Source: a virus
Taxonomy: Duplodnaviria > Caudoviricetes
Length of the DNA stretch: 60,790 nt
IMG/VR virus record: IMGVR_UViG_3300025018_000166
Location: 1-60,790 of that record
Strand: one strand, 5' to 3'
The first letter of the stretch is position 1; the number at the start of each line of letters is the position of its first letter. This document shows, in pieces, positions 7,663 to 36,061 of the stretch. Made by a program: the position numbers and the translations under genes. The notes beneath the pieces were generated by a model. That model worked only from the letters and a program-made list of their open reading frames with translations, did no database searches and was not told the DNA's origin.

Positions 7663-7703
7663 GCGCAAGTGGCCGAGCGGCAACGCGTGAGGACCGGGCG
7701 CCC

Positions 7704-15323: not shown

Positions 15324-15355
15324 GCCCTTATCGTGCCCCAGCCGTGCGGATGGGT

Positions 15356-15455
15356 AGCCATGCCCAAGCCATGACTAAGCCATGGCTTAGTCGTTCTTTG
15401 CGGTGCCAGCGCACAAACGAACCGCGTGCGGCACGCGGTTCGCAGCCATGATGGC
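15356..15455. repeat. palindrome and hairpin cluster upstream of the small-terminase-like gene
   Basis: perfect 20-bp palindrome GACTAAGCCATGGCTTAGTC (15373-15392), AGCCATG three times at 11-bp period, two further hairpins. Confidence 0.7.
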
Positions 15456-15482
15456 TGGTGCGCTTTGCGGTCCGTTTGCGGT

Positions 15483-16724: not shown

Positions 16725-16731
16725 CAGGAAA

Positions 16732-17154: not shown

Positions 17155-17176
17155 CCCTCACGATGCCCTAAAAAGG

Positions 17177-18013: not shown

Positions 18014-18074
18014 GGGGCTTCTCCTTGGGGGTGAACCTACGCCGTCCATCTTACGGGACAACGGGGGGGCCGCG

Positions 18075-18599: not shown

Positions 18600-18832
18600 G
18601 TGAGCGGGTTGCGGTCGTGGTCGCGTTCGGCCTTCGTGTCGTGCTTGCCGACGAGGTTCGTGACGATCATGAGCGTGCCGAACAGCGGCCACAGCAGGCT
18701 TGAGATGGCTGCGACGGCGTGCAGCCGTGCGTTCTTGCGGCGGCGTGCCTGATCGGCGGTGTCGTAGATCACGTACGCGGTGAGCGAGGCACCAATGGCA
18801 TAGACGGCGGTGAGGAACAGGATCTCGGGCAT
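18596..18832 (-). CDS. small membrane protein
   Basis: AAAGGAGG RBS; two hydrophobic segments. Confidence 0.7.
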   Translation of the reverse strand: MPEILFLTAVYAIGASLTAYVIYDTADQARRRKNARLHAVAAISSLLWPLFGTLMIVTNLVGKHDTKAERDHDRNPLT

Positions 18833-18845
18833 GCGACTTCCTCCT

Positions 18846-19379
18846 TTAGTCGAGCGCGCCCAGGGGAACATCGAGGGTGAATGCGAGGGCAGTGAGGGTG
18901 TCCAGCACGCCGTTCCCTTTGACGGTTAGGCGGTGGTCGGGTGTGACCAGGCGAGCGTCAACCCAGGCGGGCGGGTGGTCGCAGGGTCCAGCGCGAAGGG
19001 CAAGGAGGATGTATACAAGTGCGAGCGCCCGCAGACCCTCAGCATGCACGAGGTCGTGGGGGTCGATTCGGAAGGCGCGCAACCGTTCGAGGTGTTCGAG
19101 GACGCGCGCGCCCTTCGCGGTGACGCCGCCCTCGTCGGCGATGCCTTGCTCGCGCCATGCGCGGGGGATGCGGCCGGGCGCGAGGTCGTGCGCGCGGAGG
19201 TTCGCGGCGCCTTCGGGCAGGTCGAGGATCGAGAGCGCGTCCGCGAGGTGCTTCGGGCGGGCGCGGTAGCGGGTGTCGCCGTGCACGGCGCGGCCGGGGG
19301 GGCGCATGCGCGTGCGCTGGACCGGCACGAGGTCCGGCCAGAGCGCCCCTTGCCGCGCGAGGTCATGGCGCGAGCGCAT
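18846..19379 (-). CDS. hypothetical protein
   Basis: ORF within the leftward operon; repeated xTxKG winged-helix-like ends. Confidence 0.6.
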   Translation of the reverse strand: MRSRHDLARQGALWPDLVPVQRTRMRPPGRAVHGDTRYRARPKHLADALSILDLPEGAANLRAHDLAPGRIPRAWREQGIADEGGVTAKGARVLEHLERLRAFRIDPHDLVHAEGLRALALVYILLALRAGPCDHPPAWVDARLVTPDHRLTVKGNGVLDTLTALAFTLDVPLGALD

Positions 19380-20154
19380 ACTGCACCTGGCGGCGGTGTT
19401 CGCGCGCTCGGGCGCGGGCGCGTTCTGCGTCGATCACGTGCGCGAGTTGCCGGGTGTCATCCTCAAGGTGCCGAGCGTAGGCGCGGTGCGCATCCTCGAT
19501 CCACCACGGGTCGGGGAACAGCCTCGCGAGGTGCGCGATGTAGACGTTGCCGGTGCCGCCGCAGCCTGCGCGCGCGAGGGCTTTCGCGAGGTCTACGACG
19601 TGCACGTGCACGACGCGCGCAGCGATGGGGATGGGCAGCATCCCGAACGGTTGATCGAGCGGTTCGATCAGCCGGAAGCACGCGTTGCTTGCGCTCCATC
19701 GGCCCCGAACGACGTCCGGGTACGCGTGCAGGCGCAGGTTCGCGAGGGTCGGTTCTTTCGCGTCGATGCGCGTCACGTGCGCTTCGTGCAGGTCGCCGTG
19801 CTGATCCATCGCGAGCACGTGCTTGCGGGGCCGCGCGCGGAAGCTGATCTCGAAGGACTTCAGGTACGCGTACACCTTGCCGGGCCGCAGGTCGGCGTCG
19901 CGTTCGACTTCCGCGAGGGTCCGGTCGCCGCGCCGCAGGAGCGCGTTCAGGAGGTGCGCACGATTCTCAGGGTTCGCCCACCACACGTGCGCTTCGTGCG
20001 CGTTGTCGCTCGGTCGGGTGCCGCGCAGAACCGCGATGGAGTCCGCGTACACACCGAGCGGTTCCGTGAGCAGGCGCGCGATGGTCGGATGCGAGGGCGC
20101 GTTCTGCCATTCGCCGTAGGGGTCGATGCGGGAGAGGTCAACGGCGGGCGGCAT
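19363..20154 (-). CDS. hypothetical protein
   Basis: ORF within the leftward operon; codon bias on -. Confidence 0.7.
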   Translation of the reverse strand: MPPAVDLSRIDPYGEWQNAPSHPTIARLLTEPLGVYADSIAVLRGTRPSDNAHEAHVWWANPENRAHLLNALLRRGDRTLAEVERDADLRPGKVYAYLKSFEISFRARPRKHVLAMDQHGDLHEAHVTRIDAKEPTLANLRLHAYPDVVRGRWSASNACFRLIEPLDQPFGMLPIPIAARVVHVHVVDLAKALARAGCGGTGNVYIAHLARLFPDPWWIEDAHRAYARHLEDDTRQLAHVIDAERARARAREHRRQVQYALAP

Positions 20155-20167
20155 CAGGGATCCGGGG

Positions 20168-20383
20168 TCAGTCGGCCTCAGCCGGGGCGTTCAGGGCTTC
20201 CTGGATCCGCACCAGCGTGCCGAGGCGGATGCGGTCCCGGTTTGTGTTCGCGCGGAGGTTGTAGAGCGTCGTTCGGCCCACCCCGGCGCGTTTCGCGAGC
20301 GCGGTCAGTTCCTTACCGCTGAGCGCGCGAATCGCGTCGTGGATGCGGCGCACGTCGAGCGGAGCGTCGGGGAATGAATCCAT
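20168..20383 (-). CDS. Cro/XRE-like HTH regulator
   Basis: LTALAKRAGVGRTTLYNL..IRLGTLVRIQEAL; TATGCT box shortly upstream. Confidence 0.75.
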   Translation of the reverse strand: MDSFPDAPLDVRRIHDAIRALSGKELTALAKRAGVGRTTLYNLRANTNRDRIRLGTLVRIQEALNAPAEAD

Positions 20384-20442
20384 GTCGTCCCGAGCATAGG
20401 ACACCCGCGGCCGTACCGCAAGCGGGACGGCCACGGCGGGTG

Positions 20443-21846
20443 TCACGAGTGGCTAGGGTGCGGCGCCGCATCGTGCCGCGCGAGGTCACGGAACGACGTG
20501 TGCTCACCCGTCCACTGCGTCCGAACGGTTGCGAGCGGACCGTTGCGGTTCTTGGCGATGATGAACTCGGCGATGCCCGCCTCCGTCGAGTTCGGATCGT
20601 AGTAGTCGTCGCGGTAGATGAAGATGACCGCGTCCGCGTCCTGCTCGACGGCGCCGCTCTCGCGCAGGTCCGAAAGCATCGGGCGTTTGTTCGGGCGCTG
20701 CTCGACCTGGCGGCTCAGTTGGGAGAGCACGAGCACGGGGATGTCGAGTTCGCGCGCGAGCATCTTCAGCCCGCGGCTCATGGCGCTCACTTCCTGCACG
20801 CGATTCTCGCCACCGCCGGAGCGTTTGCCTTCGGGCGCGAGGAGTTGCAGGTAGTCCACGACGAGCAGATCGAGGCCGTCGCGCGCCATCATCAGCCGCG
20901 CCTTCGTCCGCAACTGCGTCACCGTCAGATCGCTCACGTCGTTGAACAGCAGCGACTTCGTGCTGATCCGCTGGATCGTGTCCGCGAGCCGGTCGATGTC
21001 GCGACCGCCAACGCGGCCGGACCGCACGCGTTCGAGGTTCACGCGGCCCTCGGTGGCGGCGAGGCGCAGGAACAAGTCCCGATCCGGCATTTCGAGCGAG
21101 AACACGCCGACGCTGGAGCCGCGCGACGCCGCGTGCCATGCCGCGCCGAGCGCCGCCGCGGTCTTGCCCATGCCGGGCCGCGCCGCGAGGACGTACACCG
21201 CGCCCTTCTGCCACCCGTGCAGCACCGCGTCGAGGTCCGCAAGGCCGGACGGGATCCCGGTCGGGGTGCCGTCGGCGGCGAGCAGCGCCGCGACGTACGC
21301 GGTGACGTCCGCGGCAACCTCGTCGGCGCGGCGGTAGTCGCCGGTGGCGACGCCGGTGAGCAGCCCCGCGAGCGCCGTTTGCGCTTGGCCGAGGACGGTT
21401 TCGGCGTCCTCCAGGCCCGCGCTCGCAAGGCTCACCATCTTATGCCCGACGGCGATCACTTGCCGCAGGCTCGCGTTCTTGCGCACGATCCCCGCGTAGT
21501 GCGTCGCGTACGCCGCCGTCGTCGTTCCCTCAGCGAGCGCGACGAGGTACCCGATGCTTCCGACCACTTCAAGGTCGCCACGGACGCGCAGGTGCTCGCT
21601 CACGGTCACGAGGTCGATGGCATCGCCCGCCTCGAACATCGCCGACAGCGCGCGGTAGATCACGCGATGCTTCTCGGAGTAGAACGCGCGGTCGCCGCCG
21701 AGGACGTTCTGCACGTCCGGCATGACTTCGGGATCGAGAAGGATGCTACCGAGGGTGCTGCGTTCCGCGTCGAGGTCGTGCGGCACCCGGTTCGCAAGCG
21801 CACCGCCGTCGTTCGAGGCGCCGGGCATCGCGCCGGGCGGCATCAT
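20443..21846 (-). CDS. dnaB: replicative DNA helicase
   Basis: PHDLDAERSTLG, ARPGMGKT, FSLEM, VDYLQL, LSQLSR, DLRESGAVEQDAD, KNRNG. Confidence 0.96.
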   Translation of the reverse strand: MMPPGAMPGASNDGGALANRVPHDLDAERSTLGSILLDPEVMPDVQNVLGGDRAFYSEKHRVIYRALSAMFEAGDAIDLVTVSEHLRVRGDLEVVGSIGYLVALAEGTTTAAYATHYAGIVRKNASLRQVIAVGHKMVSLASAGLEDAETVLGQAQTALAGLLTGVATGDYRRADEVAADVTAYVAALLAADGTPTGIPSGLADLDAVLHGWQKGAVYVLAARPGMGKTAAALGAAWHAASRGSSVGVFSLEMPDRDLFLRLAATEGRVNLERVRSGRVGGRDIDRLADTIQRISTKSLLFNDVSDLTVTQLRTKARLMMARDGLDLLVVDYLQLLAPEGKRSGGGENRVQEVSAMSRGLKMLARELDIPVLVLSQLSRQVEQRPNKRPMLSDLRESGAVEQDADAVIFIYRDDYYDPNSTEAGIAEFIIAKNRNGPLATVRTQWTGEHTSFRDLARHDAAPHPSHS

Positions 21847-23057
21847 GCGCCGACCCCCGCGACGGGCGTCAGCAGCGACGTCATCCACGAGCGCGCGTCA
21901 CCTTCAAGCATCGCGAACTTGCCACCGTTCGTGATCGCATCCACACGAGCCTCCAGTCCATCGGGCGTGCGTACCACGCCGCCTTCCACGACGCCCGCGG
22001 GCGCGCCGGTTGCGACGCGCACCGCGGGTGCGGCTTGGGTTGCGGTCGCGAGCGTGCGCGACACCGTCTGCCCGGACAGCGCGTTCACGAAGTACCAGAA
22101 CGGCTCCTTGCCGGTGTCGTTCGCGAGGGCTTCCTGCCACAAGCGCATGAGCACTTCCGCGCCGTGAAGCCGGTACCAGCCGAGCATGCGGTTCCTGACG
22201 GACGCGTACCCCATCTGCCGCGCATCCCAGATGCTCGCGAAGAACGCACGCGCTTCGTGCGCGGCGTGCTTCGCGCCGCCCTCGCCGCGCATCATCGCCG
22301 CGAACGACGCCTCATCGCTCACCGCCGGATCGTCCGCAGCATGAACCGCCCGCGAACGTGCCCTTCGTTCGCGGGCGGGCTGGACTTCGGGGATGCCGAC
22401 CATGTCCAAGTCCCAGGACTCCGAGGCGTCGAGGGTCGAGTCCACGTGATCAGCCGCGCGTTCGAGGACGGCTGGCTGGCTAGCTTGAAGATCTTGACTT
22501 CCTTCGTCGGTCGCTGGGACCGCACCTGCGGTCGCCGGGACCGCACGTGCGGTCGCTCCGACCGCACCCCCACCTTCAGGTGCGGTCGCTGGGACCGCAC
22601 CTCGGACCAGGGGTGCGGTCGCACGGACCGCAGGTGCGGTCGCTGGGACCGCACCCCCCTTGCCGACCGGATCGGTAGGTGCGGTCGCTGGGACCGCACG
22701 TGCGGTCGCTCCGACCGCACCTACCCGGCCCGTCCAGCGGTATTCGGTCGGTGCGCCCGGCCGCTTGTCGGCGATGAACAGCCCGACCTCGACCAACCGA
22801 TCCTGAGCGGCGCGCACCCGTTTCGCGCTCATCCTCAACGCCGGACCCATGGATCGCGCGCTCTCGAAGCACGCGCCGTGCTCACCCGCGCGACGCATCA
22901 TCCGCGTCAGCACCGCGCGAGCGTACGGGTCGATCCCATAGGCTTCGAGGAGGTCATCGAGCACGGCCGGAACGAAAGGGGCGGGGATGGGATTGCCAGA
23001 AAAGTCGTCCTGCACGTTGGGCGTCCCTTCGGGGTCGCCGGTCGTTCCTGCGTGCAC
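21843..23057 (-). CDS. phage replication initiator (N-terminal winged helix, iteron-encoded linker)
   Basis: CFESARSM..LRMSAKRV..LVEVGLF; ATGA-coupled to dnaB; AVPATAP repeats; start uncertain. Confidence 0.75.
   Translation of the reverse strand: MHAGTTGDPEGTPNVQDDFSGNPIPAPFVPAVLDDLLEAYGIDPYARAVLTRMMRRAGEHGACFESARSMGPALRMSAKRVRAAQDRLVEVGLFIADKRPGAPTEYRWTGRVGAVGATARAVPATAPTDPVGKGGAVPATAPAVRATAPLVRGAVPATAPEGGGAVGATARAVPATAGAVPATDEGSQDLQASQPAVLERAADHVDSTLDASESWDLDMVGIPEVQPARERRARSRAVHAADDPAVSDEASFAAMMRGEGGAKHAAHEARAFFASIWDARQMGYASVRNRMLGWYRLHGAEVLMRLWQEALANDTGKEPFWYFVNALSGQTVSRTLATATQAAPAVRVATGAPAGVVEGGVVRTPDGLEARVDAITNGGKFAMLEGDARSWMTSLLTPVAGVGA
22505..22720. repeat. eight 21-bp palindromic iterons, probable replication origin
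   Basis: GTGCGGTC-N5-GACCGCAC at 22505, 22526, 22547, 22580, 22613, 22634, 22679 and 22700. Confidence 0.8.
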
Positions 23058-26223: not shown

Positions 26224-26260
26224 CCCTCGCCACATCCGGTATTGCCAACGGGTGACTACG

Positions 26261-26312
26261 TTGACGCGGACCCCTGCCGTCCCGTAACGTGGAACGCGGA
26301 GGTACGACCATG
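26261..26312 (+). promoter_or_regulatory. sigma70-type promoter with RBS (cassette variant lacking the palindrome)
   Basis: TTGACG-18 bp-TAACGT, GGAGGtacgaccATG 26310. Confidence 0.7.
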
Positions 26313-26714
26313 AACGAACTCATCGGCCCCACCCTCATCCTCGTCGGCGCCGCCAGCGTGGCGATCACCGCCGCCGTCGGCCTGAAGGACGTGCGCGCCA
26401 ACGCACGCCTCAACCGCGACCTCGACGCGTACACGCAGGATCCGCCGCCGCCAAACCCACCCCGACCGACGCCGCCGACGCCCGACCTGCCCCTCATCCG
26501 CGACGACGAGATCCCCGACGACCCCCGCGACCGGCTCGAACGCGCCATCATCCGCATGCGCGACTTCGCGGCCCGCACCCCCAGCGAAGCCGCGCACGAC
26601 CTCGTCGCCCGCAAGATCAAGGAAGCCGAGGAGCGCCTGGTCGAACTCAGCCACACCGGCACCCTCGACACCATCCGCGGCGCCCGCAGCGGCCTGCGCA
26701 CGTACAGCGCATGA
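26310..26714 (+). CDS. membrane-anchored hypothetical protein
   Basis: N-terminal hydrophobic helix; Pro-rich linker. Confidence 0.7.
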   Translation: MNELIGPTLILVGAASVAITAAVGLKDVRANARLNRDLDAYTQDPPPPNPPRPTPPTPDLPLIRDDEIPDDPRDRLERAIIRMRDFAARTPSEAAHDLVARKIKEAEERLVELSHTGTLDTIRGARSGLRTYSA

Positions 26715-27220
26715 CACCCGCCGAACTCGCCATCGCGCGCGCCTACCGCGACGCCGTCAGCGCGTACCGCGCCACCGCCGACGCGCTCCTCGCCAACCGG
26801 ACGAAGCGCGACGCGGTCGATGCCTACTTCGACGCACGCCGCACCCTCGCCAGCGTCGAAGCCAGCATCGACCTCGACCTGCGCCCCGACGCCACGGCCC
26901 CGGACCCCGTCGAGGCAGAGCACGGCATCGACCCCAGCACCCGCCCCGCGTTCCGCATGCCGCACCCGAGCGCCATGAAGGTCGCCGCCGTGTTCCCGGA
27001 CCCACAATCGGTGGACTTCGGCGTCCACATCACGAGCGACACCATCACCATCGACCGGAAGCACGCTCTCGCCCTGATCGGCGGCGCGCTCACCCTCGCG
27101 AACGACCTCGTCAAGCGCCAGCACCCCCGCAACGCCGCCCGCTACCGCGACGCCGCCCTCGCCCTCACCGAAGCCCTCGCCCTGCCGCCCCTCGCCGACG
27201 ACCCCACGGAGGAGTCATGA
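26711..27220 (+). CDS. hypothetical protein
   Basis: ATGA overlap; codon bias. Confidence 0.7.
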   Translation: MTPAELAIARAYRDAVSAYRATADALLANRTKRDAVDAYFDARRTLASVEASIDLDLRPDATAPDPVEAEHGIDPSTRPAFRMPHPSAMKVAAVFPDPQSVDFGVHITSDTITIDRKHALALIGGALTLANDLVKRQHPRNAARYRDAALALTEALALPPLADDPTEES

Positions 27221-27639
27221 CCAGCACCCGCCCCCGAACCTTCGCCCGCACCGTGATCGCCCTCGCCGCGCTCCTGTTCGCCACCGTCGGCGCCGCACAG
27301 ACCGGCACGAACTGGACCCCGCGCGAAGTCGCGTGGGTCATGGCGGACTTCATGGACGGCGTCATGACCGACGTGTGCCCCGGCGAACGCGAACGCGGCG
27401 TGCCCGAACCCACCTGCTTCTTCGTCACCCGCGGCACGTTCGGCGCGAAAAGCCTTCTGGACGACTTCGCGTACCGCATGATCGACTTCACGTGGGCCGG
27501 GAACTGGGACAGCCTCGGCAACATTCTCGGCCGCGGCGCCTACGCCACGAACCGGAACGGCGGAAGCGATCCGTTCTACATCATGGTCACGCCGCACCTC
27601 ACCGACTTCGCGCTCGTATGGGTGCTGGAGGACAAGTGA
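27217..27639 (+). CDS. exported hypothetical protein
   Basis: GGAGGAG RBS; signal peptide ending GAA-Q. Confidence 0.7.
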   Translation: MTSTRPRTFARTVIALAALLFATVGAAQTGTNWTPREVAWVMADFMDGVMTDVCPGERERGVPEPTCFFVTRGTFGAKSLLDDFAYRMIDFTWAGNWDSLGNILGRGAYATNRNGGSDPFYIMVTPHLTDFALVWVLEDK

Positions 27640-28121
27640 CCACCACCCCCACCGAACGCGCACCCCTGTTCGAGCACATCACCATCCACCTCACCGACGC
27701 GCTCGGCACGTCGTCCAGCATCACCGTCGCCGCCAGCAAATACTTCGACGTGCTCCGCGCCGTCGGCGCCCGCGGCATGTGGAGCGGCGACATCCCCCGC
27801 GGCGGCATCCGACTCCCGTACGCCAACGCCGACGACTTCGACTGGCGCCTGATCGGCGGACGCGAGTACACCGACCGCGACGGCAACCCGACCGTGTTCG
27901 CCCGCGGCCACTACTGGAAGCGCCGCGAACTCGCCGCGAACCCGAACAAGAACCTGCGCGCGATGGTCAAGTACAGCCGCGGCGCCCGCCCGTTCGACCC
28001 GCCCGACATCATCGAAGGCGACGAAGGCCAATCGTTCCGATACGTCACCCTCATCGTGTTCGCCGGGGACGGCCACAAGGACGAACGGTACGCCGACCCG
28101 CGACGGGCGGCAGCGTCGTGA
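27636..28121 (+). CDS. ddrB: DdrB-like single-stranded DNA binding/annealing protein
   Basis: SGDIPRGG..P..N..DFDWRLIG..RGH.W.RREL..VKYSRGA..DP..YVTL.VF.G..ERYA.P matches Deinococcus DdrB blocks recalled from memory; GGAGG RBS with GTGA overlap. Confidence 0.85.
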   Translation: MTTTPTERAPLFEHITIHLTDALGTSSSITVAASKYFDVLRAVGARGMWSGDIPRGGIRLPYANADDFDWRLIGGREYTDRDGNPTVFARGHYWKRRELAANPNKNLRAMVKYSRGARPFDPPDIIEGDEGQSFRYVTLIVFAGDGHKDERYADPRRAAAS

Positions 28122-28336
28122 CCCGCCCCGGCATGATGGGCGGCACCTTCAAGCGTGACGATCAGGCGCACGTGTTCGACCAGGGCAAGATCATCAACTG
28201 CGTTGTCGTCGCCGTCGCCGACAACGACGGCATCATCACCGTCACCCTCGACAGCGCGTACGGCATCCGCTACACCCTGCCCGCCGCCCAGGTCGGCCGC
28301 GGATGGCTCGCGGTCGGATCAGGAGGGCACGAATGA
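28118..28336 (+). CDS. small SH3-like hypothetical protein
   Basis: overlapping start and stop codons. Confidence 0.55.
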   Translation: MTRPGMMGGTFKRDDQAHVFDQGKIINCVVVAVADNDGIITVTLDSAYGIRYTLPAAQVGRGWLAVGSGGHE

Positions 28337-28763
28337 CCGGCCTCGACGGCACCCCCGTCCTCATCGGCGCAGGCCCCGCCCTCAAGGTCGCTACCCTGTT
28401 CACCGCATGACCCAGCCCACGCTTGTCAGCCTGTTCGCCGCGAGCGGCGGCGACAGCGACCCGCACGTCGCTCTCGCGCCAACGCTGACCGCCGCGAACG
28501 ACCCAAGCCGTAGCCCGCAGTCCAGCGAAATCACCGCCCAAGTCGCGGCAGTCCACGCAGCTGGGTACGCCGTCCGCCGCCTCACGCCCCGCGAGTGCGA
28601 ACGCCTCCAAGGCTTCCCCGACGACTGGACGGCCCACGACCACAACGGCCGCCCCATCGCCGACACGCACCGCTACCGTATGTGCGGCAACGCCGTGACC
28701 GTGAACGTAATCGAGTGGATCGCCTCGCGCGTGCGCGTCGCCACCGAGCCGCCACCCACTTGA
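28333..28763 (+). pseudogene. internally deleted C5-cytosine methyltransferase remnant
   Basis: LKVATLFT* (28333-28410), then MTQPTLVSLFA joined to VRRLTPRECERLQGFPDDWT..RYRMCGNAVTV (28407-28763); no catalytic PC or ENV motif. Confidence 0.75.
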
Positions 28764-28810
28764 CGTGCGTACGCGCGAGGGCGTACGATGGTGACGGAGG
28801 TACGATCATG
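28760..28810 (+). promoter_or_regulatory. Class-1 cassette, copy 4
   Basis: TTGACGtgcgtacgcgcg..TACGAT..GGAGG..ATG 28808; supplies the upstream TGA. Confidence 0.85.
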
Positions 28811-29809: not shown

Positions 29810-29986
29810 TACGCTTGAGCCGGGCGCGCGACACCGTGGGAGGCCACGGCACAGCGCGACGGTAAGGGTAGATGGCCGACTCCGCACTCGCCGACCGGCC
29901 TGCCCCGAGTGATCGCTACCGGGATCTCGACCGACCGGCGCGCGCCCACCACCGCCTGCGACGGCGGCGCCCGCTACCGTGAGGGC

Positions 29987-32900
29987 ATGTACCGGCCGAC
30001 GTTCACCGCGGGCTACTACGAAGCGCACCACCCGCGGGTGGGCCGCGTGATCTTCTACGCGACCCTCAGCCCGCTCGAACACGTGACGTTCGCGAAGGCG
30101 GGTGACGCGCCGGACGAGAAGTGGATCACCCTCAAACCGCACGGCCCCGACCACCCCTCGTACGTGCACGTCAAGATCCGACAGCACGTGGACGGCACCG
30201 CCTCGGTCATCACCGGCGCACCCGAACTCCGCGGCCTGCGCCTGAACCGCATGAAGAAGCCGGACGATCCCGACGCCGCACCGAGCGGTGGCCGGAAGGC
30301 GCTGCGCGCCGCCGCGAAGGAACGCGTGGCGGGCCTCAGCGATCAGCAGCGCGAGGTGCGCGCGCAACGGCAGAAGGCGCTGAAGGACAAGGTCGCCGAA
30401 GTCACGAAGCGCGCCGCGTCGCTCGCCAAGGAGTTCACCGGCGGCAGCGACGACGACGACAAGGACGACGAACCGCTCACGAAGGTGCAGACGCGCTTGC
30501 GGCGGCTGGAGCGCGAAACGATTCGCGAACTCGCGCAGGACACCACCGTCCGCGCCGCCGTCCTCGGTCACGACGAAAGCGTGAGCGCCGATCAGGTGCC
30601 CGGCGCCCTGCCGACCGGCAGCGGCACGCGGGGGTACGCGTTCAGCGCCAAGGAAGAAGCCGCGGAGCGCGGCTTCACCCGCGAGGACGCGCGCAAGGAG
30701 GACGACGCGTTCTTTCAGAAGCGCGTGGACGCCGTCCTCGCTACGGACCCGGTGAAGGCCGCACGGATGATCGAGGCGCGCGAGCGCATGCAGGCGCGCC
30801 GCGACGAACGCGAGCAGAACCCGAAGCCGAAGCCGCCGCGGCCGGATCCGGTGAAGCCCGAGCAGTTGGTCGAGAACGCCGCGAAAGCCCGCGAGTACCT
30901 GGGCGCCATGCGGGAACTGCGCGCGATGAAGCGCCAACTCAGGATCACGAACCTCGCGCTCGATCCCGACAGCAGCGACGCCGAACTCGACGCGATGACG
31001 CGCGCCAGCGAACCGCCGAAGGATGCACCGTGGGACGTGAGCGCCAGCACCCTCAGCCCGGAGCACGCGCGGGAGATCGAGAAGGCCGTCAAGGACGCCG
31101 CGGATGAAGACCTCACGCGCGCGTTCCTGGACGCCGCTACCGCCGACGAAGGCATGGGGTGGGGCTACGACCGCATGCGCACCGCCTTGCGCGCACCGCA
31201 CGCGGCGGGCGCGTACGCGCACCTCAACAACCTCGCGCTCGCCACGTACGGCCACGAAGTCCTCGACCGCACCGCGCTCGACATGCTCGGCACGAACGCC
31301 GCCGCGCAACTCCTCGCGCGGCACCTGATCCAGAACCAGACACCCGAAGACCTCGATCTACTCCGCGACGGCTTGGGCGAGTACCACGACCGCAACAGCA
31401 CCGAGCGCATGCGCACCGCCCTCGATGAAGCGCAGGTCGCGCGCGACGCCGCCGCCGAGATGGAAGTCCCCGACATCACCGCGAACGTGGACGCCGTCGT
31501 GGCACGCCGCATGATCCTCGACAAGCGCCGGATGCTGGAGAAGGCGCACCATGCGCTCGGCACCGCGCTCGGGCAGGTCGAAGCGGGCGCCGCGATCAAC
31601 TTCGCGCTCGGTCGCCCGAAGCAAGACCAGTTGATCGTGGACTTGGGCGACACCGACGTCGAGCGCGCCAGCACGAACCTGCGCGCCCTCGGCCTCGATG
31701 ACGGCCAGTACGACTTCCATCGCGACGCCGAAGGGCGCCTGTGGACGTCAATCAACGGCGCGGGCATGGACGCGCTCACGCAGCCAGTGGACCCCGCCGA
31801 AGCCGAACTCGCGGACGCCGTGAACGCGATCAAGGACGGCGCCGAGGACGAAGCCGACTGGCTACCCGCAGGCTTCACGCGGTACCCCGCCAGCGCGTTC
31901 GACAAGAACCCGCCGCTACCCGAAGCGTTCGCTACCAACCCCCTCGCGCCCGACCCCGACGACGACGGCGAACCGAAACCGATCAGCGACCGCATGCGCG
32001 ACGCCGTCGCCAGCCGCCTCGCGGACGGCTGGAACCCCGCCGAAGTGCGCCGGTACCTCACCAGCGAGGGCACCCTGAGCGCGATGCCTACGCACGAGCG
32101 CGCCGAAGCGGAAGCCGCGATCAGCGACCTCATGCCTCTGCGCGACGCCGACGGTGAACCCATCGACTACGCACGCATGCACGAGAAGCACCCGGACGCG
32201 TACGCGACCCTCATGGGCACCGCGACCGACTGGGCGCGCGAGAACAAGCCCGACGAGGCATCGTTCCTCGACCAGCAGATCAGCGACACCGACCCGGACG
32301 TGCACCGCGCGCTGTTCATGGCGATCACCGAGGATCCCGCAACGCAGGTCGCGCACAAGCCCATCGGCACCCTCACCCCGCAAGATCAACGCGCGATCCG
32401 CGGGTACTTCCTCCAGAGCATCGTCGGCCTCAGCCCCGAGCAGATGGCCGAACGTCAGGAGGACGCGGGCAAAGCCGTCGAAGGCTGGGAGAAGGCCACG
32501 AACGCGGACGGCACCATCCGAAACCCCATGCCCGACAAGTTCGTCGGCCTCATGGGCGCCAAACCGAACCCGTACGTGACCCTGCGCCTCAACGTGCCCG
32601 CCCGATCCGACGAGAAGAAGGCGCTCACGAGCATGGGGTTGACGGAGGAGGGCGTGCACTTCGTTCGCGACGCCCAAGGCGAAACGATCACGCTCACCGA
32701 GGAAGGCAAGCGTGCGCTGAAGCCGCCGCCGAGCGCGTGGGCCGACAAGATCAAGGGCTTGGAGGGCTTGAACCCGGCGTACCGCTCGTGGCACGACGAC
32801 CGCAAGAAGGTCGCCGCCGCCGCGTTCAACCCCGACGACACCCCGGAGTGGCGCGACTTCGTCGCGAACGTCGGCGGCGCGCAGCAAGCACAGAAGGTCG

Positions 32901-35900
32901 TGCAACAGCACATGCAGGGCGCCCTCGCGGATCGCTTCCAGCGGTACCACGCGAACCTCACGAAGAAGCCGTTGCGCCTCACGACCCGCCCGAACGATCA
33001 CGGCGACATGCTCATGCGCCTGCAAGACCCCGAGGAGTTCCAGCGCCTCAGCGCCCGAATCAAAGCGGAGCAGGACGAGAGCCGCGTTCGCGAAGGCGGG
33101 AAGTTCGCGGACATGGGCGGCAAGGGCGCCCTCAAGCGCGCGTTCGAGGAGCAGGAGCAGAAGCGTCGCGCCGCCGCCCTCGCGCAAGGCAGCATGTTCG
33201 GCGGCGCCAGTGAGGACAACGGCGGCAAGCGCCCGGATCCGATCCGGCACTTCGAGCGCGTCGCCCTGCCCGACCACATCGCCGCGCGCCTCGGCGCGAT
33301 GACGACCACCGTCGCGGGCAGCATCGGCCCGAACACGAACCCCGTGAACCTCATCCCGGACCTCACGATGGGTAGCGGGACGAAGTTCGTGAAGCAGCAG
33401 CGCGCGATCAAAGCCGCGTTGCGCGCCAAGAAGTTCGCGACCTTCCTCGGCGTCGGGTGCGTGGACGGCGCGACGCTACTCACGGACGCCGTGACGGGCG
33501 AAACCCGGTCGTTCCACGAGTGGATGATCGCGCGCCGCGCGCCGCGCGTGTGGGCACTCGATCAGCAGCAGAAGCCGGTCATCGCGCAGGCGACGGTGCC
33601 GTTCGTGAAGGCGTTCGAGCCGATGTTCGACGTCGCGACCACCGGAGGACGCACGATCCGCGTCGCAGCCGGGCACAAGTTCCTCACGCCCGACGGGTGG
33701 CAGCCGCTCAAGAGCCTTCGCGTCGGCGACGCCGTCGGTACGCCCGCCCGCCTTCGCGGATGCGCTCCTTCCCTTCCGGCGTCCAGTTCGGCACTTGCCC
33801 CTTCAGGGTCGCCGCAAGATGCGCACCGTTCGACTCGTACACCGCCAGGTTCGACGGATCGTTGTTCGCCACGTCCCCGTCCAGGTGATGCACGACCTCA
33901 CGCCGCCGCAACCGGCGCCCTAGCGTGCGCTCCATCACCAACCGATGCTCACGCACGTACCCGTTCGAGTTCGCATGCGGATGGTCCGGTGCACGCACAA
34001 GCCGATACCCATGCTTATCCACAACCACCCCGCCTCCCCATGACGGGTTTCGCTCACCTAGACGCGCCCCTTCGGGAAGCCGCGGGATGCCAAACCGAAT
34101 CGTGGCTTGACGCACCGACTCCGCGCTCGAAAGGCCCAGCGCAGCCGCGATCTCGGACGTGCTCAACCCACGCGCCGCAAGTTCTCGTAGCCGCGCTTCC
34201 TGATCCGCAAGTGGACTCGGCCGACCCTTCCGCGCCGGTGTACCGCCCGCCAACACCAACGCCGTCATCACAAGGCGCTGCGAGCAACCCAGGGCGCGAG
34301 CCAGCGCCGGGCCGCGCTCACCCGCCTCGTAGCGACGCCGGACTTCCTCTTGGAACGCTGGATCGTTCTGCCGACCGTACGGCTTTCGAGGCATGGACGC
34401 AGCATACCTTGGGGTGGGATGCGGTCGAGAGCATCATCGAACGCGCGCCCGACCTTGTGTACGACATCACCGTGCCGCACCACGCGAACTACCTCGCGCA
34501 CGGCATGTGGCACCACAACAGCGGCAAGACCGCCGTCGGGATCGGCGCGTTCACGGAGGCGCACGCGAAGGGACTTGTGCGCAAAGGCATGTTCGTGGTG
34601 CCGAGCATCGTCAGGAACCAGTTCGGCGAGGAGATGGCGCGCACCGTCGAGCCGGGCAAGTTCGGATGGCACGCCGGAGAAGCGAACCTGGACGAGCGCC
34701 TGAAGCAGTATCAGAACCCGGACACGCACATGGTCAGCGTCACGCACCAGGCGTTCCGGGACGACATGGTGACGCTCATGCAGCGCGCGCACGGGTACGA
34801 CGACGCGGACGAAGCCGCGGACGCGTTCCTCGAAGCGGACCCCGGCGAGCGCACGCGGATGCTCAAGAAGGCGCTCGATCAGCACCAGATCCCGATGGAG
34901 TTCCTGATGATGGACGAGGCGCACGACAGCCTCGACCGCGCCGGGAAGGCCGAGAGCCTATTGACCGCCGTCACCGAAACCGCGATGGGCCTCGCGAGCC
35001 ACGCGATCCTCGCGACCGGCAGCCCCGTCAAGAACGACGCCAGCGAAGTCCACTCCTGGCTGAAGAAGTTGGACCCGCAACGGTTTGGGGATCGCGACGA
35101 GTTCATGCGCAAGTACGGCACGGACATGCACGCCAGCGCCGAAGCCCTCAAGCGCCTCATGGGCCGGTACGCGTACTCGGACGTGGTCGCCAGCGGATCG
35201 AGCAAGACCGTGACGTGGGGCGCCGAAGGCGAAAACGGCGACAGCCCGAGCGGGCACGCACGCATCCGCCTCAGCCCGCAGCAGCGCGCCAGCCTCGCGC
35301 ACACCCGCGACGCGTACGAGCGCGCGCGCCGCGCCCGGCAGAACGGCGGCGTGGACGTGGAGGCGCTGAAGGTGCTCACGCCGCGCTCGTTCGAGCGCAC
35401 GAAGCCGGACCAGCACCAGGCACTCGCGAAGCGCCTCAACCGTGCCTTGGGCGCGCTGAAGCACGCCGCCGAGAGCCGGGTCGTGAACGAGGCACCCGCG
35501 GAGCACAACGCGAAGATCCAGCACGTCCTGAAGCTCGCGGACGGGCGCCGCGGGAAGGGCGGCGTCGTGTTCGCGCACAATCGCGCGAGCGTCACGAACC
35601 TCGCCGCGTCGTTAGAGAAGGCCGGGCACAAGGTCGCGACGCTCACCGGCAGCGACAGCAGCGAGCAGAAGGCGCGCATCCGGGAGCGGTTCAAGCGTGG
35701 CGAGATCGACGTCATCGTCGCCAGCGACGCCGCCGCGACCGGCGCGAACCTCCAGGATCGCGGCGAATGGCTCGTGAACTACGACCTGCCGCTCACGTAC
35801 AAGACGCTGGAGCAGCGGAACGCGCGCATCGACCGCCTCGGCCAAACGCGCCACATCGAACTGCACCACCTGATCACGGACGCGGATCACGACACCGACA

Positions 35901-36061
35901 ACCTCGACCGCCTCACCCGCAAGCACGCGCTCGCGGGCATCCTGCAAGGCGAGCACGAGAGCCTGGACGACACCGGCCTCGCGAAGTACCTCAACGTCGC
36001 CGCCGCCGCGCGCACCACCGAACCGCCCGCGCCCGCCGAAGACCAGGGAGGCATGTTCTGA
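29987..36061 (+). CDS. giant virion-type protein with an intein-interrupted SNF2/SF2 helicase
   Basis: GVG|SGKT Walker A split by the intein, MMDEAH, ATGSPVKN, AAATGANLQ, EQRNARIDRLGQ; leaderless TACCGT-6 nt-ATG at 29987. Confidence 0.88.
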   Translation: MYRPTFTAGYYEAHHPRVGRVIFYATLSPLEHVTFAKAGDAPDEKWITLKPHGPDHPSYVHVKIRQHVDGTASVITGAPELRGLRLNRMKKPDDPDAAPSGGRKALRAAAKERVAGLSDQQREVRAQRQKALKDKVAEVTKRAASLAKEFTGGSDDDDKDDEPLTKVQTRLRRLERETIRELAQDTTVRAAVLGHDESVSADQVPGALPTGSGTRGYAFSAKEEAAERGFTREDARKEDDAFFQKRVDAVLATDPVKAARMIEARERMQARRDEREQNPKPKPPRPDPVKPEQLVENAAKAREYLGAMRELRAMKRQLRITNLALDPDSSDAELDAMTRASEPPKDAPWDVSASTLSPEHAREIEKAVKDAADEDLTRAFLDAATADEGMGWGYDRMRTALRAPHAAGAYAHLNNLALATYGHEVLDRTALDMLGTNAAAQLLARHLIQNQTPEDLDLLRDGLGEYHDRNSTERMRTALDEAQVARDAAAEMEVPDITANVDAVVARRMILDKRRMLEKAHHALGTALGQVEAGAAINFALGRPKQDQLIVDLGDTDVERASTNLRALGLDDGQYDFHRDAEGRLWTSINGAGMDALTQPVDPAEAELADAVNAIKDGAEDEADWLPAGFTRYPASAFDKNPPLPEAFATNPLAPDPDDDGEPKPISDRMRDAVASRLADGWNPAEVRRYLTSEGTLSAMPTHERAEAEAAISDLMPLRDADGEPIDYARMHEKHPDAYATLMGTATDWARENKPDEASFLDQQISDTDPDVHRALFMAITEDPATQVAHKPIGTLTPQDQRAIRGYFLQSIVGLSPEQMAERQEDAGKAVEGWEKATNADGTIRNPMPDKFVGLMGAKPNPYVTLRLNVPARSDEKKALTSMGLTEEGVHFVRDAQGETITLTEEGKRALKPPPSAWADKIKGLEGLNPAYRSWHDDRKKVAAAAFNPDDTPEWRDFVANVGGAQQAQKVVQQHMQGALADRFQRYHANLTKKPLRLTTRPNDHGDMLMRLQDPEEFQRLSARIKAEQDESRVREGGKFADMGGKGALKRAFEEQEQKRRAAALAQGSMFGGASEDNGGKRPDPIRHFERVALPDHIAARLGAMTTTVAGSIGPNTNPVNLIPDLTMGSGTKFVKQQRAIKAALRAKKFATFLGVGCVDGATLLTDAVTGETRSFHEWMIARRAPRVWALDQQQKPVIAQATVPFVKAFEPMFDVATTGGRTIRVAAGHKFLTPDGWQPLKSLRVGDAVGTPARLRGCAPSLPASSSALAPSGSPQDAHRSTRTPPGSTDRCSPRPRPGDARPHAAATGALACAPSPTDAHARTRSSSHADGPVHAQADTHAYPQPPRLPMTGFAHLDAPLREAAGCQTESWLDAPTPRSKGPAQPRSRTCSTHAPQVLVAALPDPQVDSADPSAPVYRPPTPTPSSQGAASNPGREPAPGRAHPPRSDAGLPLGTLDRSADRTAFEAWTQHTLGWDAVESIIERAPDLVYDITVPHHANYLAHGMWHHNSGKTAVGIGAFTEAHAKGLVRKGMFVVPSIVRNQFGEEMARTVEPGKFGWHAGEANLDERLKQYQNPDTHMVSVTHQAFRDDMVTLMQRAHGYDDADEAADAFLEADPGERTRMLKKALDQHQIPMEFLMMDEAHDSLDRAGKAESLLTAVTETAMGLASHAILATGSPVKNDASEVHSWLKKLDPQRFGDRDEFMRKYGTDMHASAEALKRLMGRYAYSDVVASGSSKTVTWGAEGENGDSPSGHARIRLSPQQRASLAHTRDAYERARRARQNGGVDVEALKVLTPRSFERTKPDQHQALAKRLNRALGALKHAAESRVVNEAPAEHNAKIQHVLKLADGRRGKGGVVFAHNRASVTNLAASLEKAGHKVATLTGSDSSEQKARIRERFKRGEIDVIVASDAAATGANLQDRGEWLVNYDLPLTYKTLEQRNARIDRLGQTRHIELHHLITDADHDTDNLDRLTRKHALAGILQGEHESLDDTGLAKYLNVAAAARTTEPPAPAEDQGGMF
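33458..34519 (+). mobile_element. 354-aa intein in helicase motif I
   Basis: CVDGAT N-terminus, AAGHKFLTPDGW block B, VYDITVPHHANYLAHGMWHHN|S C-terminus. Confidence 0.93.
33708..34394 (-). CDS. HTH-HNH homing endonuclease encoded antisense within the intein
   Basis: two HTH segments, NPSWGGG..GY..HPHA..GYVREHRLVME..LGR.L..EVVHHLDGDVANNDPSNL; TATGCT 6 nt before ATG on -. Confidence 0.88.
   Translation of the reverse strand: MPRKPYGRQNDPAFQEEVRRRYEAGERGPALARALGCSQRLVMTALVLAGGTPARKGRPSPLADQEARLRELAARGLSTSEIAAALGLSSAESVRQATIRFGIPRLPEGARLGERNPSWGGGVVVDKHGYRLVRAPDHPHANSNGYVREHRLVMERTLGRRLRRREVVHHLDGDVANNDPSNLAVYESNGAHLAATLKGQVPNWTPEGKERIREGGRAYRRRRRREGS

What the first reader, a model, noticed from the sequence alone, without database searches (positions are those of the whole stretch)
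27636..28121. Phage-encoded DdrB homolog
Seen: a 161-aa ORF, buried in a longer track ORF, with blocks SGDIPRGG, DFDWRLIG, RREL, KYSRGA..DP, YVTL.VF.G and ERYA.P. Known: DdrB is a pentameric ssDNA-binding and annealing protein of Deinococcus radiation repair, usually described as lineage-restricted. Inference: it may act as the phage single-strand annealing protein, since no RecT, Erf, Sak or RecA is visible in this window. It may also bear on a viral origin or reservoir for ddrB, and could anneal the short repeated cassettes.
Basis: partly seen in the sequence, partly recalled or inferred. Interest (0 to 1): 0.8.

Follow-up and report, generated by a model that had tools for sequence, protein, structure and literature searches.

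The report
DdrB annealing protein in a phage
A tailed phage related to Thermus phages carries a genuine copy of DdrB, the ring-shaped single-strand DNA binding and annealing protein known from radiation-resistant Deinococcus, and relatives of this gene turn out to sit in several other phages and plasmids.

Summary
ORF 27636-28121 (+, GTG start, 161 aa) is coding (GC by codon position 0.64/0.52/0.91). It matches Pfam DdrB PF12747 at E 3e-29 and solved DdrB chains at E 2e-29. An AF2 model (pLDDT 93) hits only DdrB structures (4noe_E TM 0.93).

The window is about 75% of a myophage related to Thermus phage Lalka (TerL 59%, MCP 64% identity). Lalka encodes a RecT-like annealase and no DdrB. This phage has DdrB and no RecT, ERF, Rad52 or RecA in 60.8 kb.

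I found DdrB homologs in 8 further IMG/VR contigs, mostly beside replication genes, and in 10 plasmids. None of the 12 viral, metagenome or plasmid loci scanned carries the Deinococcus RDRM operator. It precedes 23 of 27 canonical chromosomal ddrB loci.

Most likely role: the phage's own ssDNA annealing and protection protein. That role is inferred, not shown.

Novelty is moderate. No match in 50,697 deposited phage genomes, but UniProt already names one uncultured-phage protein "DdrB-like". The direction of transfer is unresolved, and the cassette-annealing idea is unsupported.

The parts
27636..28121 (+). ddrB-like gene, 161 aa, GTG start
   Evidence: Translation. Pfam PF12747 E 3.1e-29. PDB 4exw_A E 2.1e-29 and 4hqb_A E 2.1e-26. 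Coding GC pattern. AF2 model pLDDT 93, top Foldseek hit 4noe_E E 7e-17, TM 0.93.
27217..27639 (+). upstream gene, 140 aa, unknown function; its stop overlaps the ddrB start (GTGA)
   Evidence: ORF. GC3 0.91. No Pfam or PHROGs family. In a divergent contig of run X3, 27266-27642 is replaced by 369 other letters while ddrB is kept.
26310..27220 (+). two further small genes of the same abutting block (26310-26714 and 26711-27220), unknown function
   Evidence: ORFs. Cassette-like ribosome site and ATG at 26296-26312. No families.
28118..28336 (+). small ORF, 72 aa, whose GTG start overlaps the ddrB stop
   Evidence: Read from the sequence and from the frame of ORF 27779-28336. Not otherwise tested.
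28155..28763 (+). remnant or short form of a C5 cytosine DNA methyltransferase; only the C-terminal part matches. The true start is probably later than 28155.
   Evidence: Pfam PF00145 E 7.5e-15, profile positions 256-321 of 324 only. PHROGs DNA methyltransferase families.
28760..28789 (+). sigma-70-like promoter cassette that ends the ddrB block; one of 7 exact copies of the core TTGACGNGCGTACGC
   Evidence: In 25900-29500, 2 promoter-like sites were found against 0.1 expected.
29909..36061 (+). context: 2050-aa SNF2-type helicase with an intein, homolog of Lalka27a_41
   Evidence: Pfam Helicase_C, SNF2-rel_dom and Intein_splicing. 36% and 58% identity to the Lalka27a protein on either side of the intein.
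14541..21888 (-). context: replication block with DnaB 20443-21888, SSB within 17177-18160 and a clamp-like gene 15483-16724. No RecT in it.
   Evidence: Pfam DnaB_C 300.5 bits; SSB 125.7 bits with 2 stretches. phrog_947 processivity factor. RecT not found.
7587..9764 (+). context: terminase large subunit, which ties the phage to Thermus phage Lalka
   Evidence: 58.8% identity over 91% of the query to Lalka27a TerL. Pfam GpA_ATPase.

Best explanation
The gene encodes a true member of the DdrB family: a small protein without an OB fold that is expected to form a ring and bind single-stranded DNA on its basic beta-sheet face and in the channels between subunits. It belongs to a tailed phage with an estimated genome of about 81-86 kb. 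The phage is related to the Lalka and phiMa myophages of Thermus, so its host is probably a member of Deinococcota.

I read it as the phage's own single-strand annealing and ssDNA-protecting protein. After host or phage nucleases resect DNA ends, it would coat the 3' tails and pair complementary strands. That would serve recombination-dependent replication, repair of broken phage DNA, and closing of a terminally redundant genome. This is the job done by the RecT-like protein in its Thermus-phage relatives.

It is expressed from the phage's own gene block and not from the host radiation-response operator.

Shown here: family membership, fold, conservation of key DNA-binding residues, phage context, and absence of other known annealase families in the 60.8 kb. 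Inferred: ring stoichiometry, ssDNA binding, annealing, and the role in the phage life cycle.
For: Family and fold.
- Pfam DdrB at E 3.1e-29.
- phmmer to solved DdrB chains 4exw_A at E 2.1e-29 and 4hqb_A at E 2.1e-26.
- AF2 pLDDT 93.0, pTM 0.84.
- The 15 Foldseek PDB hits with E <= 0.001 are all DdrB chains. The best is 4noe_E at E 7e-17, TMt 0.93, rmsd 1.8. The next, unrelated hit has E 0.11.

DNA-binding residues.
- Passages of PMC3834827 list nine D. radiodurans residues tested by alanine substitution: R64, W66, R83, K94, K108, R132, K135, R85 and K102.
- The alignment maps them to R76, Y78, K95, N106, R118, A143, H147, R97 and K112. Six of nine are kept in kind.
- R85 and K102, called absolutely conserved in that paper, are R97 and K112 here. 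Both are invariant in all 20 aligned homologs.

Self-association.
- Four copies scored ipSAE 0.67 against a best of 3 controls of 0.00.
- That mark was reached by 20 of 30 proteins solved as pairs of one chain and by 1 of 23 solved as single chains.
- The runs agree in at least 92% of contacts, and partner pLDDT is at least 78.
- DdrB pentamers are solved, so this pass may be from memory and shows likeness only.

Phage identity.
- The window is an IMG/VR virus record.
- Identity to Lalka27a is 58.8% for TerL, 54-58% for portal and 63.7% for MCP.

Annealase census.
- RecT, ERF, Rad52 and RecA are absent from the window at E <= 0.1.
- The Lalka27a RecT-like protein finds nothing in the window by tblastn at 1e-3.
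- As a positive control, the same Pfam model finds the Lalka27a RecT at 38.2 bits.
- Lalka27a has no DdrB.
- The Lalka paper states that Lalka and phiMa encode a RecT-like protein and have redundant termini (passages of PMC11437467).

Recurrence in mobile elements.
- I found 8 other IMG/VR contigs with DdrB homologs.
- In six of them the gene lies in an early or replication context. In L056, L057, L083, L085 and L088 it is within about 6 kb of Prim-Pol, DnaB, SSB, clamp or methylase genes, and in L055 it lies between an integrase and the terminase.
- L057 is a second Lalka-related phage (TerL 44%, DnaB 41%). Its DdrB sits in another clade of the tree.
- Across the 9 viral records, RecT is found in 0 of 9, Rad52 in 0 of 9 and ERF in 1 of 9. 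The one ERF lies 77 kb from the DdrB.

Signs of selection.
- GC3 is 0.91, like the neighbouring genes.
- Seven close homologs at 59-84% identity keep R76, K95, R97, K112 and R118 invariant.
- Of the 18 listed substitutions inside the gene in a divergent contig of run X3, 11 are at third codon positions, 5 at first and 2 at second. That list is cut, with 18 more rows not shown.
Against: - No activity was measured.
- In this window the gene is not in the replication block. It lies after the portal and MuF genes and before the giant helicase and polyvalent proteins.
- No exonuclease partner was found. YqaJ is absent from 5 of 5 viral records tested, and Pfam finds no nuclease among the 10 genes scanned beside DdrB in L083, L085, L087, L088 and L055.
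- The contig is about 75% complete. A RecT or an exonuclease could lie in the missing 20-25 kb. In Lalka27a the exonuclease gene sits next to the nucleotidase gene, and this window starts just before its nucleotidase homolog.
- Four Deinococcota genomes that carry a Lalka-like TerL have no Pfam RecT at all. In the three that have DdrB, it is on a different contig from the TerL. RecT and DdrB are therefore not a clean either-or in this phage group.
- I measured no base rate of annealases among comparable phage contigs, and 4 of the 9 viral records are only 43-57% complete.
- Three of the nine tested DNA-binding positions are not kept: N106, A143 and H147.
- The protein lacks the C-terminal tail of the Deinococcus proteins.
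- The phage already has a canonical SSB. That argues against a plain SSB role but does not prove an annealing role.
Confidence: 0.6

Rival explanations
1. It is an ssDNA shield and not an annealase. The protein coats ssDNA or resected ends of the incoming or replicating phage genome and blocks host nucleases. It would then be part of the block of early-protection and anti-restriction genes around it.
For: Passages of PMC3834827 say DdrB suppresses RecJ exonuclease and was first proposed as an alternative SSB. In the window the gene lies between MuF and a methylase remnant, an SNF2 helicase homologous to a Lalka virion-module protein, and an LPD1 polyvalent protein. In L064 a DdrB homolog directly follows a methyltransferase-helicase giant. 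DNA methyltransferases lie next to DdrB in L057, L088 and the KNUC1210 plasmid.
Against: Binding and annealing are not exclusive in DdrB. Most other viral copies sit with replication genes and not with anti-restriction genes. There is no evidence of packaging or early expression.
Confidence: 0.2
2. It is a host-benefit gene carried by a temperate phage. Expressed in the lysogen, it would add DNA-damage or desiccation tolerance to the host.
For: Lalka relatives carry integrases and LexA-like regulators. IMG/VR classes 4 of the 8 other DdrB-bearing records as proviruses. Deinococcus species often hold 2-4 DdrB copies.
Against: No RDRM operator is present in the window at up to 4 mismatches. The gene sits inside a block of abutting lytic-looking genes with no promoter of its own by the scan. 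No integrase was found in the 60.8 kb: the Lalka27a integrase gave no tblastn hit at 1e-3.
Confidence: 0.08
3. It anneals the phage's repeated short cassettes to drive rearrangements.
For: Seven direct copies of a cassette of 70-90 nt exist on one strand. From the title and abstract start in the listing only, PMC4627823 reports single-strand annealing between 438-bp repeats in D. radiodurans and mentions DdrB 96 times.
Against: Each cassette is a TTGACG-N18-TAnnAT promoter followed by GGAGGT and ATG in front of a gene. The copies are 69-92% identical and short. Annealing between them would delete the genes in between.
Confidence: 0.03
4. It is a passenger gene picked up from a host, with no role in the phage.
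For: Phages do pick up host genes. DdrB is common in Deinococcota, in 137 of 364 species genomes.
Against: At most about 51% identity to any named Deinococcus protein. Composition matches the phage. The gene is conserved in a starred clade of 7 proteins with key residues invariant, and it is retained where the neighbouring gene was replaced.
Confidence: 0.04

Closest known systems
DdrB of Deinococcus radiodurans and D. geothermalis (PDB 4hqb, 4noe, 4exw)
   Same: Same Pfam family, with about 40% identity in the structural alignment. The predicted fold is the same (TM 0.93). R64, R85 and K102 equivalents are kept, and W66 is kept as an aromatic residue. The model predicts self-association.
   Different: Encoded by a phage. 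No RDRM operator is present. It is 161 aa and ends 6 residues after the ERYA.P block, so it has no C-terminal tail. It has a 2-residue shorter hairpin at the K94-L97 region. R132 and K135 equivalents are not kept.
RecT-like annealing protein of Thermus phages Lalka and phiMa
   Same: Proposed same job in a related phage. Lalka27a has RecT and no DdrB, and this phage has the reverse.
   Different: Unrelated fold and family. In Lalka the gene sits inside the replication operon. Here DdrB sits after the portal and MuF genes.
Phage annealases of the Rad52-like group (Red-beta, Erf, Sak)
   Same: Ring-forming, ATP-independent ssDNA annealing proteins. DdrB has been compared with Rad52 in mechanism.
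   Different: No sequence or fold relation. No match to PF03837, PF04404 or PF04098 in the window. No paired exonuclease was found.
UniProt A0A6J5MLY4, 'Single-stranded DNA binding protein DdrB-like' of an uncultured Caudovirales phage
   Same: A database entry that already names a DdrB-like protein in a phage. It is the top BFVD hit.
   Different: 293 aa and a weak structural match (E 1.1e-3, TMq 0.39). I did not align the sequences. I found no paper about it.
Phage P1 'DdrB' of the Dar anti-restriction system
   Same: The name only.
   Different: An unrelated ParB-like domain protein (passages of PMC5512222). Most papers found with 'DdrB' plus 'phage' concern this protein.

Membership tests
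DdrB family (Pfam PF12747) | Profile match above the curated cut-off over nearly the full domain | tested here: met
   101.9 bits against a cut-off of 25, profile positions 13-131 of 132. 102 bits in the six-frame search.
DdrB family (Pfam PF12747) | The DdrB fold, a non-OB ssDNA-binding fold | tested here: met
   AF2 pLDDT 93. All 15 Foldseek PDB hits at E <= 0.001 are DdrB chains, best TMt 0.93 and rmsd 1.8. This is a prediction, not a solved structure.
DdrB family (Pfam PF12747) | Homo-pentameric ring | tested here: inconclusive
   Four copies scored 0.67 against a best control of 0.00, so the model supports self-association. The tool takes at most 4 copies, so five-fold stoichiometry was not tested. 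The pass may be from memory of the solved pentamers.
DdrB family (Pfam PF12747) | Conserved ssDNA-contact residues (R64, W66, R83, R85, K102, K108 and others in D. radiodurans) | tested here: met
   Six of the nine mutated positions are kept in kind (R76, Y78, K95, R97, K112, R118). Three are not (N106, A143, H147). Sources: alignment and passages. Supplementary Figure S2 of that paper could not be seen.
DdrB family (Pfam PF12747) | Binds ssDNA but not dsDNA, and stimulates annealing | not testable with these tools
   Needs purified protein.
Deinococcus radiation-desiccation response regulon gene (ddr) | RDRM operator upstream, under DdrO/IrrE control | tested here: not met
   The motif TTATGTTATTTACRTAA is exact upstream of 23 of 27 canonical Deinococcus loci. 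A 1-mismatch form precedes 6 of 7 short-type loci. The window has 0 matches at up to 4 mismatches.
Two-component phage recombination module (annealase plus exonuclease) | Adjacent 5'-3' exonuclease gene | tested here: not met
   No YqaJ in the window. The genes upstream in the block (26289-27639) match no Pfam or PHROGs family, the gene at 28155-28763 matches only DNA methyltransferases, and the 28118-28336 ORF was not scanned. The Lalka exonuclease has no homolog in the 60.8 kb, but the contig is incomplete.
Rad52-like, RecT or Erf phage annealases | Profile match to PF03837, PF04404 or PF04098 | tested here: not met
   P0001 matches only PF12747 in Pfam at E <= 10. The window has no match to the three families.

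The most novel reading that the evidence does not exclude
DdrB is not a Deinococcus invention for radiation repair. It is a family of ring annealases that circulates on phages and plasmids of Deinococcota and a few other phyla, and so would be a further structural class of phage single-strand annealing protein beside the Rad52-like, Rad51-like and Gp2.5-like ones (these class names are recalled, not taken from a call). On this reading the chromosomal ddrB of Deinococcus is a captured copy that was placed under the RDRM operator. The phage copies would then be natural, host-matched recombineering proteins for Deinococcus and Thermus.
Probability: 0.25. Interest if true: 0.75.

Novelty: new member of a known kind. 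Interest (0 to 1): 0.55.

Why it matters
A review describes DdrB as Deinococcus-specific (passage of PMC6300522). This gene shows it as a working part of phage genomes. I found 8 more viral contigs and 10 plasmids that carry it, and those scanned lack the host's damage-response operator.

If the phage protein anneals DNA, three things follow:
- It adds a structural class to the known phage annealases.
- It gives a concrete route for how ddrB copies move among Deinococcota and into other phyla.
- It offers a candidate recombineering protein for high-GC hosts in Deinococcota.

The limits are that the family, fold and chemistry are already known, that one uncultured-phage protein is already labelled DdrB-like in UniProt, and that the role in the phage is inferred only.

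Tried and rejected
- **Other family libraries.** PHROGs and NCBIfam gave no family for the protein.
- **Name clash.** Of the 53 papers holding 'DdrB' and 'phage', 20 were listed. Those I opened concern the unrelated P1 Dar protein, merely cite Deinococcus DdrB, or report metagenome homologs.
- **Pentamer test.** Five chains were not accepted (error, not counted), so four copies were run instead.
- **Host from the SSB.** The closest SSB homologs are all unnamed metagenome proteins. They also show that the true SSB is about 276 aa, shorter than ORF 17177-18160.
- **Host from prophages.**
  - TerL relatives at 44-54% identity occur in 4 of 364 Deinococcota species genomes, with weaker partial matches in a fifth, and in 0 of 401 sampled Gemmatimonadota. 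This points to the phylum only.
  - The DdrB of genome G126 lies on another contig and has no window homologs beside it.
- **RecT against DdrB as either-or.** This is weakened by 0 of 4 Deinococcota genomes with a Lalka-like TerL having any Pfam RecT.
- **Sister group of the phage clade.**
  - FastTree (166 rows) puts it next to the canonical Deinococcus clade.
  - IQ-TREE quick (85 rows) puts it with L060, L061, L063 and the short-type clade.
  - Neither placement is starred, so I draw no donor.
  - Rows left out: 31 of 198 domain hits with incomplete domains, 1 duplicate, and for the second tree a hand-picked 85.
- **Promoter for the ddrB block.** TTGACG at 26262 with TAACGT downstream did not pass the sigma-70 scan.
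- **Nuclease partner.** None found.
- **Close relatives in JGI metagenome contigs.** The best was only 51% identical, and none shares other genes with the window.
- **Expression.** No RNA holder listed.
Full report
**The observation**

The longer mechanical ORF 27333-28121 is an artefact of high G+C. Its first 303 bases have GC3 0.46, whereas 27636-28121 has GC by codon position 0.64/0.52/0.91, the same pattern as the neighbouring genes. The GTG at 27636 overlaps the stop of the upstream gene (GTGA). The next ORF starts with a GTG that overlaps the ddrB stop. The gene is therefore one link in a chain of abutting genes running from about 26310 to 28763.

**What the protein is**

- Pfam gives a single family, DdrB PF12747, at E 3.1e-29 and 101.9 bits against a cut-off of 25, over profile positions 13-131 of 132.
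- PHROGs and NCBIfam give nothing.
- phmmer against all PDB chains finds the DdrB chain of entry 4exw (E 2.1e-29) and the D. radiodurans chain of 4hqb/4noe (E 2.1e-26) over residues 18-156.
- An AlphaFold2 model built on 20 homologs has mean pLDDT 93.0 and pTM 0.84.
- In Foldseek against the PDB, all 15 hits at E <= 0.001 are DdrB chains. The best is 4noe_E at E 7e-17, TMt 0.93 and rmsd 1.8. The next hit is unrelated at E 0.11.

**DNA-binding residues**

Passages of the 2013 complex paper (PMC3834827) name nine residues tested by alanine substitution. Using the alignment, they map as follows.

| D. radiodurans residue | Phage residue | Kept in kind? |
|---|---|---|
| R64 | R76 | yes |
| W66 | Y78 | yes (aromatic) |
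| R83 | K95 | yes (basic) |
| R85 | R97 | yes |
| K102 | K112 | yes |
| K108 | R118 | yes (basic) |
| K94 | N106 (K105 is adjacent) | no |
| R132 | A143 | no |
| K135 | H147 (K148 is adjacent) | no |

The two residues the paper calls absolutely conserved (R85, K102) are invariant in my 20-sequence alignment. The protein ends six residues after the ERYA.P block, so it lacks the disordered C-terminal tail. The same paper says that tail's SSB-like motif is not needed for radioresistance.

**Self-association**

A four-copy model scored ipSAE 0.67 against a best of three controls of 0.00. That mark was reached by 20 of 30 proteins solved as pairs of one chain and by 1 of 23 solved as single chains. 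The runs agree in at least 92% of contacts, and partner pLDDT is at least 78. Pentameric DdrB structures exist, so this may be memory. Five-fold stoichiometry could not be tested.

**The genome around the gene**

The window is an IMG/VR virus record, linear, with a CheckV estimate of 75% complete and 69.5% G+C.

Its relationship to Thermus phage Lalka27a is clear:
- TerL (7587-9764) is 58.8% identical.
- Portal is 54-58%, MuF 33% and MCP (54040-55512) 63.7% identical.
- The 2050-aa helicase is 36% and 58% identical on either side of an intein.
- Lalka27a is a myophage with DarB-like and Ulx-like anti-restriction genes.

The window also holds:
- a DnaB helicase, a two-domain SSB and a clamp-like gene on the minus strand;
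- an N6/N4 methylase and a nucleotidase;
- an LPD1 polyvalent protein of 2632 aa.

By synteny with Lalka27a, what lies beyond the window's ends is mainly the tail module, and perhaps the exonuclease that sits next to the nucleotidase in Lalka27a. Near-identical DdrB proteins lie on contigs of 83,635 and 86,451 b, which fits a genome of about 81-86 kb.

On the host:
- TerL relatives at 44-54% identity occur in 4 of 364 Deinococcota species genomes, with weaker partial matches in a fifth, and in 0 of 401 sampled Gemmatimonadota. The host is probably in Deinococcota, and I can say no more than that.
- Contigs identical to parts of 26200-28800 occur in a hot-springs run, X2 (5 listed pieces with 0 differences, one covering 27859-28437), and in a cold-spring run, X3. 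An aquifer run, X1, may be the source.

**Is there another annealase?**

- RecT, ERF, Rad52/Sak and RecA models find nothing in the window at E <= 0.1. YqaJ exonuclease finds nothing either.
- The Lalka paper (passages of PMC11437467) says Lalka and phiMa encode a RecT-like protein and have redundant termini.
- The Lalka27a RecT-like protein finds nothing in the window by tblastn at 1e-3.
- As a positive control, the Pfam RecT model does find the Lalka27a gene at 38.2 bits.
- Lalka27a has no DdrB.

Among these phages there is thus one case of RecT without DdrB and two of DdrB without RecT (the window, and L057/G003, a second Lalka-related contig with TerL 44% and DnaB 41%).

Several points cut against a clean swap:
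- Four Deinococcota genomes with a Lalka-like TerL have no Pfam RecT at all, and their DdrB genes are on other contigs.
- The window is incomplete.
- I measured no base rate.

**DdrB elsewhere**

- The family is small. There are 122 clusters at 50% identity with E <= 0.001 among 1.84 billion representatives, 91 of them at E <= 1e-10.
- In species genomes, PF12747 occurs in 137 of 364 Deinococcota, often in 2-4 copies, and in 1 of 401 sampled Gemmatimonadota.
- The pattern scan of genome contigs gave 53 loci. Most are Deinococcus. Four are Gemmatimonadota bins and one is a Rhodothermales bin.
- Ten of 72,556 plasmids carry a homolog. Nine are Deinococcus plasmids. The tenth is the conjugative Oceanithermus profundus plasmid, where the gene follows a tyrosine recombinase.
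- Three DdrB queries found nothing in 50,697 deposited phage genomes at E limits of 1e-5, 0.01 and 1.
- IMG/VR holds at least 8 further contigs with a homolog.

The contexts of the viral copies are as follows.

| Locus | Genes around the DdrB homolog |
|---|---|
| L055 | integrase, then DdrB, then terminase and a Mu-type portal |
| L056 | serine recombinase, then DdrB, Prim-Pol and a helicase |
| L057 | DdrB, Dam methylase, DnaB |
| L083 | integrase, then DdrB, then DnaB |
| L085 | SSB, then DdrB, then DnaB |
| L088 | clamp, then DdrB, then a methylase |
| L087 | DdrB, then an IstB/DnaC-like ATPase |

Two large metagenome contigs (L060, L063) place it between a DprA/SLOG-DUF4326 protein and a class II ribonucleotide reductase.

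Over the nine viral records, RecT is found in 0 of 9, Rad52 in 0 of 9 and ERF in 1 of 9. The single ERF lies 77 kb from the DdrB in a 114-kb provirus call.

The top hit in the viral structure library is a UniProt entry already named 'Single-stranded DNA binding protein DdrB-like' from an uncultured Caudovirales phage (E 1.1e-3). The idea therefore exists as an automatic label. I found no paper on it. 'DdrB-like', 'PF12747' and 'DdrB homolog(s)/homologue' occur in 3 papers, and none is about Deinococcus-type DdrB in a phage (where I saw listings only apart from the papers I opened).

**Regulation separates the copies**

- The RDRM operator TTATGTTATTTACRTAA is found exactly within 150 nt upstream of 23 of 27 canonical-clade Deinococcus loci. 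One further locus has 2 mismatches and three have no good match.
- A 1-mismatch form precedes 6 of 7 loci of a second, shorter chromosomal type.
- No site with up to 4 mismatches exists in the window. None exists in the four viral loci L055-L058, the five metagenome loci L060-L064, the two plasmid loci or the three Gemmatimonadota loci.
- In the window, the only sigma-70-like sites in 25900-29500 are the two cassettes just downstream of the block.

**Phylogeny**

- The phage protein sits in a well-supported clade of seven unnamed metagenome proteins at 59-84% identity (95* by FastTree, 99* by IQ-TREE quick).
- The place of that clade differs between the two trees and is never starred.
- Viral copies fall in at least four separate parts of the tree. 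L055 and L057 are inside the canonical Deinococcus clade (95*). L056 is paired (99*) with unnamed P0025 and falls in or beside the short-type Deinococcus clade, depending on the tree. L058 is in the Gemmatimonadota/Rhodothermota clade (96*). The window clade stands on its own.
- The two Lalka-related phages thus carry DdrB genes of different clades at different genome positions. That fits repeated uptake or exchange.
- The trees are unrooted, so no donor can be named.

**Selection**

- The seven-member clade keeps R76, K95, R97, K112 and R118 invariant.
- In a divergent 2003-letter contig of run X3, the gene upstream of ddrB is replaced by 369 other letters while ddrB is retained.
- Of the 18 listed substitutions inside ddrB in that contig, 11 are at third codon positions, 5 at first and 2 at second. 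The table is cut, and three of these lie between a 1-base loss and a 1-base gain.

**Verdict**

The gene is a real DdrB family member in a real phage. Its most likely role is ssDNA annealing and protection for the phage's own recombination and replication, at about 0.6. The main rival is a purely protective or anti-nuclease role. Novelty is that of a known protein family in a new carrier, with a possible wider meaning if the annealase role is shown.

Noticed in passing
window 22493-22739: An array of about ten 21-bp units with the palindromic core TGCGGTC..GACCGCA. It lies in the gap between the divergent DnaB block and the portal gene, and looks like iterons or operator sites.
   Followed up: no
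window 21, 9772, 12601, 28760, 29307, 36560, 38393 (+ strand): Seven exact copies of TTGACGNGCGTACGC. Each is part of a cassette with a -10-like hexamer, GGAGGT and an ATG about 50 nt on. These are the 'short repeated cassettes', and they read as phage promoters with a palindromic GCGTACGC spacer. Two of them lie inside the mechanical 1800-aa ORF 34393-39795, which must therefore be several genes.
   Followed up: partly
window 36415, 39902, 42224, 43603, 48874: An 89-nt coding repeat (61-83% identity) gives a shared peptide of about 30 residues in the giant proteins, including the LPD1 polyvalent protein 43510-51408. Its function is unknown.
   Followed up: no
window 29909-36061: The 2050-aa SNF2-type helicase carries an intein (Pfam Intein_splicing, residues 1213-1537). 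The Lalka27a homolog aligns on both sides of it without the insert.
   Followed up: partly
window 28155-28763: The gene just after the ddrB block matches only the last quarter of C5 cytosine methyltransferases (profile positions 256-321 of 324). It is likely a remnant or a split form.
   Followed up: no
window 17177-18160 (-): The SSB has two binding-domain matches (SSB_1 plus SSB). Its homologs are about 276 aa and all come from unnamed metagenome contigs, so the true start is later than 18160.
   Followed up: partly
L002, L005, L015, L017, L018, L020 (Deinococcus genomes): A second, shorter chromosomal DdrB type of about 150 aa forms its own clade. It has a 1-mismatch RDRM 40-75 nt upstream in 6 of 7 loci, so in these species it also looks damage-regulated.
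   Followed up: partly
L077 (Oceanithermus profundus plasmid pOCEPR01, NC_014753.1 41091-41516): A DdrB homolog of 141 aa on a conjugative plasmid of a member of Thermales. It lies directly after a tyrosine recombinase and near dnaN, and is annotated only as a single-stranded DNA-binding protein.
   Followed up: partly
L060 10609-13854 and L063 10590-13808: In two large metagenome contigs the DdrB homolog is followed by a class II ribonucleotide reductase (with an intein in L060). It is preceded by a DprA/SLOG-DUF4326 fusion protein.
   Followed up: no
L058 9443-10966 and protein P0057: Some homologs are much longer (369-507 aa frames) and show a second partial DdrB-profile match near the C-terminus. 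Many metagenome members carry C-terminal extensions of 60-200 residues with no known family.
   Followed up: no
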